Below, piece by piece: positions 37,863 to 39,807 of a stretch of DNA of 64,000 nucleotides (its first letter is position 1; the number at the start of each line of letters is the position of its first letter). Under the pieces are notes generated by a model. That model worked only from the letters and a program-made list of their open reading frames with translations. It made no database searches and had not been told where the DNA came from. A program made the position numbers and the translations under genes. Origin of the DNA: a virus. Where the stretch lies: positions 96,001 to 160,000 of IMG/VR virus record IMGVR_UViG_3300042892_003815; one strand, written 5' to 3'.

Positions 37863-37932
37863 AAAATCCACCTTGGAAAAAAGCGAAATTTTCAAGGTTA
37901 CTATATACATAAAATAAATTAAAAAAAGATTA

Positions 37933-37958
37933 AACTTTTTCTAATTTAATAATACAAT
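37933..37958 (+). promoter_or_regulatory. Candidate promoter AACTT-N15-TACAAT driving the Ro60-associated RNAs
   Basis: Same spacing as 16318 and 32535; the implied start (~37965) coincides with the 5' end of RNA unit 1. Confidence 0.5.
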
Positions 37959-37965
37959 AATACAA

Positions 37966-38035
37966 TCAGTAGCAAATCATAGAGATACTTCGAAATGGAT
38001 TCTAAAAAACTCTCTAAGATAACTTACTCTGGTTT
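37966..38035 (+). ncRNA. Candidate Y-RNA-like RNA 1 (minimal)
   Basis: 5'/3' ends pair (AGTA/TACT, ATC/GAT, TAGAGA/TCTCTA); TAGCAAA and AGATACTTCG are shared with RNA 2; upstream of the TROVE gene. Confidence 0.6.
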
Positions 38036-38049
38036 TATTTTAAAAAAAC

Positions 38050-38275
38050 GCAAACATAGCAAAGTTCTAAGATACTTCGTATATTATACAACTATCAGCA
38101 AGAACGTATAAAGAGACTGCTTTATACTACCCACCTAAGAACTCAGCTTCTTAGTTATGGTTAAACAAGTCAGGAATTCATAAGTTTCCTTAAAAAGTAT
38201 GAGTGAGATGTTACTTAAAGATCGGCAAAGTTAAGTAGAATTCTTTGTGTCGCTTAGGCTAATATTCTTGTTTGC
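38050..38275 (+). ncRNA. Candidate Y-RNA-like RNA 2 with multi-hairpin insert
   Basis: End-pairing GCAAACA(38050-56)/TGTTTGC(38269-75) and CTAAG/CTTAG; AGATACTTCG motif; internal hairpins GTATAAAG/CTTTATAC, CTAAGAA/TTCTTAG, AGGAA/TTCCT, GCAAAG/CTTTGT. Confidence 0.6.
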
Positions 38276-38286
38276 TAAATTATAAT

Positions 38287-38327
38287 AAGACCAGATTTAC
38301 AGAAATGTAATTCTGGTCTTTTTTTTT
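38287..38327 (+). terminator. Intrinsic terminator between the ncRNAs and the Ro60 gene
   Basis: AAGACCAGA-TTTACAGAAATGTAAT-TCTGGTCTT followed by a T run. Confidence 0.8.
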
Positions 38328-38358
38328 ACAAAAGATGAAATAAAAATAAAATAAAATT

Positions 38359-39807
38359 ATGTCAAAATTTAACACAACCGTAAAAGAACCAAAAACAAAA
38401 ACAATAAACCTAGCAGGTGGCGAAGCTTATTCTCAAACAAATGAATTAGCTTTAGTATCTATGTTACTAACTTCATTTGTGAATGATCAATTCTACAAAT
38501 CTGGTAATGACACATTAAAAGATTTAAGAAGTTTGATTAAGAAAGTAGATCCTGAGTTTGCCGCGAAAGCTGCTATTTATGCCCGTGATAAATTTGGTAT
38601 GAGAAGTATTACTCACGCTTTGGCTGGTGAATTGACATCAGAGTTGAAAGGTAGTGAACTAGGTAAAAACTTCTATGACAAAGTTGTAGTTCGTGTTGAT
38701 GATATGACTGAGATTATGTCATACTACTTAATGCACAAAACAAGTAAAGACAATCCAAAGTTTCCAAACTCTTTGAAAAAAGGATTTGCAAAAGCTTTCG
38801 ATAAGTTTGATTCTTACCAATTAGCAAAATACTCTGGTAAAAACAAAGATCTTAAATTGGTTGATGTAGTCAACATTGTACACCCTGTTCCAACTGATAG
38901 AAACAAAACTGCTTTAGAATTACTTGTTAAAGCAGACTTGAAAGTCACTGAAACTTGGGAAGCTAAACTTTCTCAAGCAGGTCAAGTGGCCGAAAATGAA
39001 GAAGATTTAAGTCAATTAAAAGCGGATGCTTGGACTGATTTAATCACTTCAAGAAAAATCGGTTATTTTGCACTTCTTAGAAACCTAAGAAACATCTTAA
39101 ATCAAGCACCTAATGCAGCTACTGCCGCATGTGAGTTGTTAGTAGATGAGAAAATGATTAGTAAATCAAGAGTTTTACCTTTTAGATTTGCAACTGCATA
39201 TGAAGAAATTAGTAAAATGGGATCTTCAAAAGGAGTTAGAGAAGTATTGGTTGCAATAAACCAAGCGTTAGAGGTTTCAATGTGTAATGTTCCTAAGTTT
39301 GATGGTGATACATTAGTTGTTATGGACGTTTCTGGATCAATGAGTGGAAGACCTTCTGAAATTGCATCATTATTTGGTGCGATTTTGGCAAAAGCTAACA
39401 ATGCAGATGTTTTAACATTTGCGACTAGATCAGATTATAAGTCATATAATCCATTGGATTCTGTTATGACAATTAGAAATAGTTTTAGATACTCTGGAGG
39501 TGGAACAAACTTCAAGTCAATCTTTACTACTGCTAATAAAAAATATGATAGAGTTGTTATTCTTTCAGATATGCAAGGATGGGTTGGTTACACAAGTCCA
39601 AGTGCGGAGTTTAAGCAATACAAGAAAACATATGATGCAAATCCTTATGTTTATTCTTGGGATTTGGCTGGTCTTGGGACAATGCAGTTTCCAGAAAACA
39701 ATGTATTTGCTTTAGCTGGTTTCTCCGATAAAGTTTTTGATGTTATGAAGATGATGGAAATGGATAAGAAAGCTCTTTTCAATGAAATTAAAGCTATTCA
39801 ACTTTAA
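38359..39807 (+). CDS. rsr: Ro60/TROVE-domain RNA-binding protein (TROVE + vWA)
   Basis: NLAGGEAY..., DQFY, AIYAR...GMRS, YQLAKY, ALLRNLRN, LPFRF..AY, vWA MIDAS DVSGSM, GGTN, ILSDMQ. Confidence 0.92.
   Translation: MSKFNTTVKEPKTKTINLAGGEAYSQTNELALVSMLLTSFVNDQFYKSGNDTLKDLRSLIKKVDPEFAAKAAIYARDKFGMRSITHALAGELTSELKGSELGKNFYDKVVVRVDDMTEIMSYYLMHKTSKDNPKFPNSLKKGFAKAFDKFDSYQLAKYSGKNKDLKLVDVVNIVHPVPTDRNKTALELLVKADLKVTETWEAKLSQAGQVAENEEDLSQLKADAWTDLITSRKIGYFALLRNLRNILNQAPNAATAACELLVDEKMISKSRVLPFRFATAYEEISKMGSSKGVREVLVAINQALEVSMCNVPKFDGDTLVVMDVSGSMSGRPSEIASLFGAILAKANNADVLTFATRSDYKSYNPLDSVMTIRNSFRYSGGGTNFKSIFTTANKKYDRVVILSDMQGWVGYTSPSAEFKQYKKTYDANPYVYSWDLAGLGTMQFPENNVFALAGFSDKVFDVMKMMEMDKKALFNEIKAIQL

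What the first reader, a model, noticed from the sequence alone, without database searches (positions are those of the whole stretch)
37933..39807. Phage Ro60 with two tandem Y-RNA-like RNAs, one carrying a novel multi-hairpin domain
Seen: a ~500-nt ORF-free region before the TROVE gene, organised as promoter (37933-58), RNA1 (~37966-38035), RNA2 (38050-38275) and terminator (38287-327). Both RNAs pair their 5' and 3' ends into a long interrupted stem and share TAGCAAA in the internal loop and AGATACTTCG at the top of the stem. RNA1 has only a ~25-nt loop. RNA2 encloses ~180 nt with at least four hairpins (38106-27, 38135-54, 38172-90, ~38225-48) and no tRNA-like D/T arms. Established: bacterial Ro60 (Rsr) binds Y RNAs encoded beside it through a conserved terminal stem; the variable domain tethers effectors (PNPase in Deinococcus) or mimics tRNA (YrlA). 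My recollection that the GxUACUUC motif is a Yrl-type signature needs checking. Inference: a phage Ro60 RNP with two interchangeable RNA adaptors, RNA2 being an undescribed effector scaffold (RNA repair/decay, decoy for anticodon nucleases or other RNA-targeting defences). The terminator between RNAs and gene would give an excess of RNA over protein.
Basis: partly seen in the sequence, partly recalled or inferred. Interest (0 to 1): 0.86.

Follow-up and report, generated by a model that had tools for sequence, protein, structure and literature searches.

The report
Megaphage Ro60 with two Y RNAs
A giant freshwater phage encodes the RNA-binding ring protein Ro60 preceded by two small partner RNAs of the known bacterial Y-RNA type. 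The larger one carries a conserved, pseudoknotted domain where other Y RNAs carry a tRNA look-alike.

Summary
A 496-nt ORF-free stretch (37863-38358) lies before a 482-aa TROVE+vWA (Ro60) gene. It holds RNA1 (37964-38034), RNA2 (38050-38275) and a strong terminator (38289-38327).

- **Conservation:** both RNAs stand upstream of Ro60 in all 81 related loci (65 distinct sequences) with Ro60 at least 68% identical.
- **Structure:** the end-pairing stems covary. In RNA1, 9 of 10 pairs of the inner stem show compensatory changes.
- **Family:** a covariance model built only from phage RNA1 finds same-strand elements upstream of rsr in dozens of bacterial loci. There the UACUUCG motif precedes classic tRNA-like YrlA modules. 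So these are Yrl-type Y RNAs, and the motif is a true family signature.
- **Prior knowledge:** phage Ro60 with two upstream Yrl RNAs is already published (mycobacteriophages; Thermus phage phiLo).
- **What is new:** RNA2's 173-nt insert has no tRNA-like arms and matches no Rfam family. It has no counterpart in 80 bacterial rsr loci.
- **Expression:** metatranscriptome contigs cover both RNAs and the gene.

Ro60 binding and the insert's partner are untested. Verdict: a new variant of a known kind, of moderate interest.

The parts
37930..37940 (+). Conserved upstream box TTAAACTTTTT, a possible promoter element for the RNA1-RNA2 transcript
   Evidence: The box lies 26-50 nt upstream of RNA1 in most relatives. 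It is not over-represented in the window, and the sigma-70 scan does not call it. Its function is inferred.
37964..38034 (+). RNA1: short Yrl-type Y RNA (YrlB-like hairpin). P1 37964-69/38029-34; 5' internal-loop strand 37970-75 (UAGCAA); P2 37976-85/38011-20; UACUUCG 37986-92; 25-nt loop; 3' internal-loop strand 38021-28
   Evidence: In alignment A2 (58 distinct sequences), P2 is 94.9% paired and 9 of 10 pairs show compensatory changes. No shuffle of 500 reached the observed values. Model R1 scores 78 bits here and 54-30 bits on elements upstream of bacterial rsr genes.
38050..38275 (+). RNA2: Yrl-type frame (P1 38050-56/38269-75; loop strand UAGCAAAGUU 38057-66; P2 38067-71/38253-57; AUACUUCG 38072-79; 3' loop strand 38258-68) around a 173-nt effector domain
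   Evidence: Across 60 distinct sequences, P1 is 92.5% paired with AU/GC/GU/UA exchanges. P2 is 97.3% paired with GU/GC/AU at its middle pair. On alignment A5, all 35 pairs tested are 96.3% paired, against 51% or less when the partners are slid.
38079..38089 (+). Small A/U hairpin directly after the motif
   Evidence: It folds in the window. Relatives have a hairpin of different sequence at the same place. It was not counted formally.
38106..38127 (+). P3 hairpin (8 bp in the window; 3-4 bp with a conserved 12-nt loop in most relatives)
   Evidence: -5.7 kcal/mol, z -5.1. The middle pair covaries: CG 17, UA 5, AU 5, UG 3.
38129..38161 (+). P4: basal helix 38129-31/38159-61 plus variable apical hairpin 38135-41/38148-54
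   Evidence: A basal pair switches C-G (18 sequences) to U-A (13), and another switches A-U to G-C. The apical part differs in length and sequence between relatives but stays a hairpin. z is -2.5.
38172..38190 (+). P5 hairpin (5-6 bp, 9-nt loop)
   Evidence: The stem is invariant where present, so covariation says nothing. It is absent in some relatives (L044, L053, L065), so it is an optional module.
38201..38223 (+). P6 hairpin 38201-06/38211-16, with its loop (38207-10) pairing to 38221-23: an H-type pseudoknot
   Evidence: P6 has two pairs with compensatory change. For the pseudoknot, 88% of cells are paired, against 52% or less when slid. Its exchanges are GC/UA, UA/CG and GU/GC/AU, and its covariation score is 0.44 against 0.19 shuffled. 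In the window itself only 3 pairs form.
38223..38252 (+). P7 hairpin (38224-30/38243-51 with a 2-nt bulge)
   Evidence: 99.6% paired, and 3 of 7 pairs show compensatory changes.
38289..38327 (+). Intrinsic terminator: 12-bp stem, 6-nt loop, nine T
   Evidence: -18.4 kcal/mol, z -6.0. It is present in all relatives, with a varying upper stem and loop.
38359..39807 (+). Ro60/Rsr gene (TROVE + vWA with a DxSxS metal site), 482 aa
   Evidence: Pfam TROVE and vWA; PHROG 850 at 1e-45; solved phage Ro60 9KOP at E 2.7e-25 over residues 13-475. D323, S325 and S327 are invariant.

Best explanation
This is the Ro60 ribonucleoprotein locus of an uncultured freshwater megaphage. The record is 190,950 bp, estimated 33% complete, with 29.5% G+C. 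Its closest bacterial Ro60 homologues are in Bacteroidota.

Two Yrl-type Y RNAs are made upstream of, and on the same strand as, the Ro60 gene. They probably come from one precursor that ends at the terminator. Each pairs its 5' and 3' ends into a stem interrupted by an internal loop. The conserved loop strands (UAGYGA on the 5' side, a U-rich CU stretch on the 3' side) and the UACUUCG element form the family's presumed Ro60-binding frame.

RNA1 is a minimal, YrlB-like hairpin. RNA2 uses the same frame, but where YrlA RNAs carry a tRNA-like module it carries a 173-nt domain of five helices and one pseudoknot. By analogy with known Y RNAs, this domain is the effector or tethering module. It would dock an unknown partner onto the Ro60 ring, or gate access to it.

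Shown here: the gene's identity, the conservation, the covarying structure, family membership of the frame, strict linkage to Ro60, and presence in RNA libraries. Inferred: Ro60 binding, processing, and any effector.
For: **Ro60 gene:**

**Linkage to Ro60**
- Both RNAs are present in 81 of 81 loci (65 distinct sequences) with Ro60 at least 68% identical.
- A pattern from the RNA2 pseudoknot hit 13 viral contigs. In all 13 the Ro60 gene follows on the same strand within about 130-160 nt.

**Covariation**
- RNA1.
- RNA2 stems P1, P2, P6 and P7.
- P3 and P4.
- Pseudoknot.

**Family membership**
- Model R1, built from phage RNA1 only, gave 81 matches at E up to 1. Eighty are on the rsr strand and upstream of rsr in bacterial loci, scoring up to 54 bits.
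- In those loci the same frame encloses T-arm, acceptor-like stem and D-arm, which is the YrlA layout.
- More distant phage loci (Ro60 47-49% identical) have 2-4 such modules, some tRNA-like.

**Literature**
- Yrl RNAs lie near rsr on the same strand and share a 5' motif and YUAY. YrlA and YrlB come from one precursor (PMC4201824).
- Phage phiLo Ro60 binds two upstream Yrl RNAs (PMC12135203).

**Expression**
- Metatranscriptome contigs from four studies cover RNA1, the RNA1-RNA2 junction, RNA2 to 38255, and the Ro60 ORF.
Against: - No binding or transcript-end data exist. The RNA-library contigs could include DNA carry-over and cannot show ends or levels.
- The window's own 5' loop motif is UAGCAAA, which departs from the published GNCGAAN0-1G and from the clade consensus UAGYGA.
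- Model R1 matches RNA2 only weakly and with a wrong 3' partner (12.3 bits). RNA2's membership therefore rests on shared motifs, position and covarying stems.
- Single-sequence folding energies are not better than shuffles.
- A Ro60 subclade at 65-67% identity lacks both RNAs next to the gene.
Confidence: 0.8

Rival explanations
1. The structured region is a cis-acting leader of the Ro60 mRNA. In this reading RNA2, a ligand- or protein-sensing aptamer with a pseudoknot, controls read-through of the terminator at 38289-38327. It would not act as a free Y RNA.
For: The layout of structured domain, then intrinsic terminator, then gene 31 nt further on is that of attenuators. Pseudoknotted conserved domains are typical of riboswitches. 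No separate promoter for Ro60 is established; there is only a weak consensus match at 38325-52.
Against: The framing stems and motifs are homologous to bacterial Yrl modules, which are free Ro60-bound RNAs (PMC4201824). No antiterminator pairing with the terminator arm was seen. RNA1, with no sensing domain, has the same frame. No Rfam riboswitch or leader reached threshold.
Confidence: 0.07
2. RNA2's insert is only a degenerate, expanded tRNA-like module. RNA2 would then be an ordinary, divergent YrlA and not a new kind of domain.
For: The insert sits exactly where YrlA has its tRNA-like module. In one phage subgroup (L010, L083) the 3' closing segment shares a 9-nt stretch with the D-arm of the tRNA-like module of L025.
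Against: Neither the Rfam tRNA model nor ARAGORN finds a match in the window or in relatives' RNA2. The tRNA model does find the tRNA-like modules of L025 and of bacterial loci. No T-loop or D-loop sequence is present. The covarying helices and the pseudoknot do not map onto a cloverleaf.
Confidence: 0.08
3. RNA2 is an independent phage non-coding RNA, a regulatory sRNA or ribozyme-like element, that merely neighbours Ro60.
For: Its large domain has no known relative.
Against: Linkage to Ro60 is strict (81 of 81; 13 of 13) and orientation is the same. The domain is enclosed by the Yrl frame shared with RNA1.
Confidence: 0.03

Closest known systems
Bacterial YrlA/YrlB Y RNAs next to rsr (Salmonella Typhimurium, Mycobacterium smegmatis; Chen et al. 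2014, PMC4201824)
   Same: They are encoded upstream of Ro60 on the same strand, two or more per locus. The 5' and 3' ends pair into an interrupted stem. A conserved 5'-strand motif is followed by YUAY. A modular variable domain sits at the top. RNA1 resembles the short modules in Flavobacterium and Chitinophagales loci (L117 1214-1286, L121 1225-1292).
   Different: None of the RNAs here has the tRNA-like T/D-arm module that the 2014 study found in at least one Y RNA of every species. RNA2 carries a 173-nt pseudoknotted domain instead. The window's 5' motif is UAGCAAA. RNA1's loop is A-rich, not pyrimidine-rich.
Thermus phage phiLo Ro60 with Yrl1 and Yrl2 (PMC12135203; PDB 9KOP, 9L5Y)
   Same: A phage-encoded Ro60 (homologous over residues 13-475, E 2.7e-25) with two Y-like RNAs directly upstream of the gene. 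Binding was shown there in vitro, and a complex with host PNPase was reported.
   Different: The phiLo RNAs are described as short stem-bulge-stem RNAs identified by a CGAA motif. No large structured effector domain is described. The host and phage lineage differ. Nothing has been measured for the megaphage.
Deinococcus radiodurans Yrn1 in the Ro60-Y RNA-PNPase machine (RYPER)
   Same: The working model is the same: the Y RNA stem binds Ro60, and the distal module tethers an exoribonuclease or gates the ring (as summarised in PMC4201824 and bioRxiv 10.1101/312249).
   Different: The partner is unknown here. The phage records encode no PNPase. Four of five encode an RNB-family exoribonuclease elsewhere in the genome, which is only a candidate.

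Membership tests
Ro60 / Rsr protein | TROVE (HEAT-repeat ring) domain | tested here: met
   PF05731 at E 5.3e-20 and 72 bits against a cut-off of 23. Full-length match to the solved phage Ro60 9KOP.
Ro60 / Rsr protein | C-terminal vWA domain with a DxSxS metal site | tested here: met
   VWA_CoxE scores 26.9 bits (cut-off 26.4). vWA_Ro60 scores 21 bits, below its cut-off. D323, S325 and S327 are invariant in alignment A4.
Bacterial Y RNA (Yrl type) | Encoded within a few kb of the Ro60 gene, on the same strand | tested here: met
   RNA1 ends 325 nt and RNA2 ends 84 nt before the start codon, both on the + strand. The same holds in 81 of 81 relatives.
Bacterial Y RNA (Yrl type) | 5' and 3' ends pair into a long interrupted stem | tested here: met
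   Covariation for RNA1 and RNA2.
Bacterial Y RNA (Yrl type) | Conserved 5'-strand motif GNCGAAN0-1G (PMC4201824) | tested here: inconclusive
   The window has UAGCAAA in both RNAs. Relatives have UAGCGAUAG or UAGUGAA, and bacterial loci have UAGCGA, GGCGAU or CAGUGA. The position is the same and the YGA core is shared, but the match is not literal.
Bacterial Y RNA (Yrl type) | Conserved YUAY just after the stem | tested here: met
   Relatives have UUAC within GUUACUUCG. The window has AUAC, so UAC is kept and the first Y is A. The same UACUUCG stands in bacterial YrlA modules.
Bacterial Y RNA (Yrl type) | Similarity to accepted members by a sequence-plus-structure model | tested here: met
   This holds for RNA1: model R1 finds bacterial modules at up to 54 bits, E 6.5e-10. 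For RNA2 the match is only weak (12.3 bits). Rfam has no model that detects even the clear bacterial YrlA modules, which hit only the tRNA model.
Bacterial Y RNA (Yrl type) | Bound and stabilised by Ro60 | not testable with these tools
   This needs co-immunoprecipitation or a gel-shift assay.
YrlA (tRNA-like Y RNA) | T-arm and D-arm forming a tRNA-like module | tested here: not met
   No tRNA model or ARAGORN match in the window or in relatives' RNA2. Modules of L025 and of bacterial loci do match.
YrlB-type short Y RNA | [quoted passage not shown] | tested here: inconclusive
   RNA1 is a long interrupted hairpin. Its 25-nt loop has 11 A and only 11 pyrimidines.
Intrinsic terminator | Stable G+C-containing hairpin followed by a U run | tested here: met
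   12-bp stem with 5 G-C pairs, -18.4 kcal/mol, then nine T. The simple scan missed it because of one internal mismatch.

The most novel reading that the evidence does not exclude
RNA2's pseudoknotted domain is a new class of Y-RNA effector module. It would dock a partner other than PNPase or tRNA enzymes onto Ro60. The partner could be, for example, the phage's own RNB-family exoribonuclease or a host RNA-targeting defence protein. The result would be a megaphage-specific RNA surveillance or counter-defence particle.
Probability: 0.3. Interest if true: 0.75.

Novelty: new variant of a known kind. Interest (0 to 1): 0.55.

Why it matters
**What is at stake**
- Y RNAs are thought to work as adaptors: a constant Ro60-binding stem plus a variable module that selects the partner.
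- So far, the bacterial and phage modules described in the papers read here are tRNA-like or simple stem-loops.
- This clade puts a different, well-defined fold into the same frame: five helices and a pseudoknot, with optional inserted hairpins.

**Why the clade is worth study**
- It is abundant. More than 4,000 Ro60 homologues were found, and runs from at least a dozen lake and wastewater studies hold half or more of the stretch.
- It gives a clean comparative data set for asking what Y RNA modules recruit, and why giant phages carry Ro60.

**A side result**
- UACUUCG is a family-wide Yrl signature across Bacteroidota, Verrucomicrobiota and Sericytochromatia loci. This gives a simple handle for annotating Y RNAs that Rfam does not detect.

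Tried and rejected
- **Rfam:** nothing at gathering thresholds in the whole window. At E up to 10, the only matches in the region were chance ones over the terminator (L20 leader 25 bits against a cut-off of 58.7). Nothing turned up for RNA2 of six relatives.
- **Consensus folding:** RNAalifold on the 3' domain predicted no pairs, because the helices are weak and A/U-rich and the alignment has gaps. The helices were then tested by hand-specified structures.
- **Kissing interaction:** a pairing between the two GAAUUC palindromes (P5 loop and P7 tip) was considered and dropped, because the P5 loop is not conserved.
- **AUAG/CUAU pairing:** AUAG in the 5' loop strand could pair with CUAU about 20 nt after the motif. 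There are some compensatory cases (L010 against L029), but the pairing is inconsistent across groups, so it is left open.
- **Search for the RNA2 domain elsewhere:** an nhmmer profile of RNA2 found only the 5' frame in 80 bacterial rsr loci. It found no second copy in the 190-kb phage record.
- **RNA-library gaps and depth:** no contig covered 38256-38421, and contig depths differ between the RNAs and the gene. Neither can be read as transcript ends or relative abundance.
- **RNA-repair or PNPase context:** no RtcB or PNPase gene was found in five related phage records.
- **Review paper:** the 2020 Annual Review on bacterial Ro60 was not held.
Full report
**The sequence itself**

Window 38359-39807 (+) encodes a 482-aa protein with a TROVE domain (E 5.3e-20) and a vWA domain. 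It matches PHROG 850 'RNA-binding protein' at 1e-45. It also matches the crystallised Ro60 of Thermus phage phiLo over residues 13-475 (E 2.7e-25). The DxSxS metal-site residues are invariant among relatives.

The 496 nt before the gene hold only two ORFs of 20 aa or more, 38 and 31 aa. AGATACTTCG occurs exactly twice in 64 kb, at 37983 and 38070. Each copy is preceded by TAGCAAA.

The terminator at 38289-38318, followed by nine T, folds at -18.4 kcal/mol (z -6.0). Whole-RNA folding energies are not better than shuffles (z -0.7 and -1.2). The case therefore rests on comparison with relatives.

**What genome this is**

The window lies in an IMG/VR virus record of 190,950 bp, judged 33% complete. 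It has 29.5% G+C and no tRNA gene. Relatives include a 634,780-bp uncultured phage record (Ro60 75% identical) and IMG/VR contigs of 385-483 kb rated 95-98% complete.

DNA runs that hold the stretch come from lake water and wastewater. The closest Ro60 proteins in prokaryote genome bins are from Bacteroidota, at 56-60% identity. Notes from other agents also suggest a Bacteroidota host. I did not test the host itself.

**Conservation and linkage**

Ro60 searches gave 31 viral loci and 80 metagenome loci.
- Every one of the 81 loci with Ro60 at least 68% identical and enough upstream DNA has both RNA1 and RNA2 on the gene's strand. These are 65 distinct upstream sequences (nhmmer E below 1e-5).
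- A pattern taken from the RNA2 pseudoknot hit 13 viral contigs. In all 13 the Ro60 gene follows within about 130-160 nt.
- The record holds one copy of each RNA.
- A subclade at 65-67% identity lacks both RNAs. It has a tRNA gene array and a small ORF before Ro60 instead.

**RNA1 structure**

The 58 distinct RNA1 sequences align without a structural guide.
- RNAalifold finds a 10-bp inner stem in which 9 pairs show compensatory changes.
- With the 5-bp terminal stem added, 91% of cells are paired, against 28-56% when the 3' partners are slid.
- No shuffle of 500 reached the observed values.
- In the window the stems are 37964-69/38029-34 and 37976-85/38011-20, around a 25-nt loop that begins with UACUUCG.

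**RNA2 frame and domain**

Frame, across 60 distinct sequences:
- The terminal stem (38050-56/38269-75) is 92.5% paired, with AU, GC, GU and UA exchanges.
- One subgroup has an entirely different, still complementary, stem sequence.
- The 5-bp inner stem (38067-71/38253-57) is 97.3% paired, with GU, GC and AU at its middle position.

On a 33-sequence alignment of the window's own groups, 35 specified pairs are 96.3% paired, against 51% or less when slid. Ten pairs show compensatory change.

The helices inside the domain:
- **P3 (38106-27):** the middle pair covaries as CG, UA, AU and UG.
- **P4:** one basal pair switches C-G (18 sequences) to U-A (13). The apical hairpin varies in length.
- **P5 (38172-90):** conserved but invariant, and absent in some relatives.
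- **P6 (38201-16):** two compensatory pairs.
- **P7 (38223-52):** three compensatory pairs.
the P6 loop (consensus GAUGG) pairs with CUAUC six nucleotides downstream. G-C switches to U-A in seven sequences, U-A to C-G in four, and G-U to G-C or A-U. In a more distant subgroup GAUG/CAUC becomes GAAA/UUUC. Over 42 distinct sequences, 88% of cells are paired, against 52% or less when slid. The covariation score is 0.44 against 0.19 in shuffles. In the window itself only three pseudoknot pairs form.

Between the conserved elements, relatives insert one to three extra hairpins. RNA2 therefore ranges from about 200 to about 290 nt, and the window has the minimal form.

**Is it a Y RNA?**

The literature sets these criteria. 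Yrl RNAs lie within a few kb of rsr on the same strand. They have a 5' motif GNCGAAN0-1G, then a conserved YUAY, then a variable module. In YrlA that module mimics tRNA. YrlB-type RNAs are simple hairpins. In M. smegmatis both come from one precursor upstream of rsr (PMC4201824).

I tested these criteria on fetched bacterial loci.
- TACTTCG occurs upstream of rsr in about 58 of 80 loci, often in 2-5 copies, and downstream in only one.
- Reading the loci shows the same frame as in the phage: terminal stem, UAGCGA-like strand, inner stem, GUUACUUCG, then a U-rich CU strand on the way back.
- In those loci the frame encloses T-arm, acceptor-like stem and D-arm.
- A covariance model built only from phage RNA1 gave 81 matches at E up to 1. 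One of these is the window's own RNA1, on which the model was built.
- Eighty matches lie on the rsr strand, and those in bacterial loci lie upstream of rsr. They score up to 54 bits, and many span tRNA-like inserts.
- More distant phage loci (Ro60 47-49% identical) carry two to four such modules, some tRNA-like.

RNA1 is therefore a member of the family.

RNA2 shares the frame motifs, position and covarying stems with RNA1. The RNA1 model, however, matches it only weakly (12.3 bits).

The window's UAGCAAA departs from the clade consensus UAGYGA and from the published motif. That criterion is left inconclusive.

**Is the RNA2 domain new?**
- Neither the tRNA model nor ARAGORN finds a match in the window or in relatives' RNA2.
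- The same tRNA model does detect the tRNA-like modules of L025 and of bacterial loci.
- No Rfam family matches.
- Rfam's silence on Y RNA identity means little, because it also misses the clear bacterial YrlA modules.
- A profile of RNA2 finds only the 5' frame in 80 bacterial rsr loci.
- Among 50,697 phage records, only the 634-kb relative matches.

The published phage cases are mycobacteriophages, CcrColossus and phage G with tRNA-like Yrl RNAs, and phiLo with short Yrl1 and Yrl2. A review of jumbo phages mentions TROVE proteins only 'with a tRNA-like partner'. I found no description of a Y RNA with a large pseudoknotted module. The library is incomplete, and the main review was not held.

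**Expression**

Six metatranscriptomic runs hold parts of the stretch. Assembled contigs from four of them were laid on the window.
- They cover RNA1 (37921-38048).
- They cover the RNA1-RNA2 junction (38024-38114).
- They cover RNA2 up to 38255 in two studies. One of these contigs continues 5' into a strain variant of RNA1.
- They cover most of the Ro60 ORF.

Contigs cannot show ends, strand or level, and DNA carry-over is possible. This shows presence in RNA libraries and is compatible with a joint precursor, no more.

**Mechanism**

- **Best-supported reading:** a promoter upstream of 37964 drives an RNA1-RNA2 precursor that stops at the terminator. A conserved box at 37930-40 may belong to this promoter. 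Ro60 binds the frame of each RNA. RNA1 acts as a minimal Y RNA, and RNA2's domain tethers or gates a partner.
- **How Ro60 itself is transcribed is unresolved.** It could be by read-through or from the weak promoter-like match at 38325-52.
- **Candidate partners are guesses.** The related phages encode no PNPase and no RtcB. Four of five encode an RNB-family exoribonuclease far from the locus. That lead came from another agent's note, and the fifth phage has Ro60 and both RNAs without it.

**Rivals**

An attenuator or riboswitch reading fits the terminator layout, but not the homology to free Y RNAs. A cryptic tRNA mimic is not supported by any detector or by the helix map. An unrelated neighbouring ncRNA is contradicted by the strict linkage and the shared frame.

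**Verdict**

The real finding is a new, well-supported Y RNA variant. Its tRNA-like module is replaced by a conserved pseudoknotted domain, and it is abundant in freshwater megaphages.

Noticed in passing
window 38289-38318 versus 37964-69/38029-34: The terminator stem carries the same CCAG/CUGG core, and similar 3' flanking letters, as RNA1's terminal stem. Model R1 matches it as a 'stem only' hit. In L029 both changed together to UCAG/CUGA. This could reflect duplication, a shared processing site or chance.
   Followed up: partly
L093, L095, L097, L099, L108 (upstream of Ro60): A Ro60 subclade at 65-67% identity has no RNA1 or RNA2. Most of these loci instead hold an array of 2-7 tRNA genes, a G+C-richer unassigned stretch of about 215 nt, and a conserved small ORF directly before Ro60. 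L099 shows only the small ORF and was not scanned for tRNAs.
   Followed up: partly
L115-L194 (bacterial rsr loci), e.g. L124 640-1440, L153 330-1330: Bacteroidota, Verrucomicrobiota and Sericytochromatia rsr genes are preceded by up to five tandem Yrl modules, each with UACUUCG. Long arrays of ordinary tRNA genes are often present as well. Rfam detects only the tRNA-like parts.
   Followed up: partly
G000:C1:51859-52833 (outside the window) and related records: An RNB-family (RNase R/II type) exoribonuclease gene is present in 4 of 5 related megaphage records. RtcB and PNPase are absent from all five.
   Followed up: partly
L080 (between terminator and Ro60), L022 and L039: Some relatives carry insertions of 100-190 nt between the terminator and the Ro60 start. 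In L080 the insert contains tRNA-like T-arm sequence, but ARAGORN calls no tRNA.
   Followed up: no
window 38325-38352: A promoter-like match (TTTACA, 16 nt, TAAAAT) ends 6 nt before the Ro60 ATG, and no Shine-Dalgarno sequence is visible. This would imply a leaderless or very short-leader mRNA if it is used.
   Followed up: no
window 38173-38180 and 38238-38243: The palindrome GAATTC occurs in the P5 loop and again at the tip of P7. The P7 copy is conserved in relatives and the P5 copy is not.
   Followed up: partly
window 37869-37900: A 10-bp hairpin lies just after the upstream 84-aa ORF and is conserved in part in relatives (L013, L045). It may terminate the upstream transcript.
   Followed up: no
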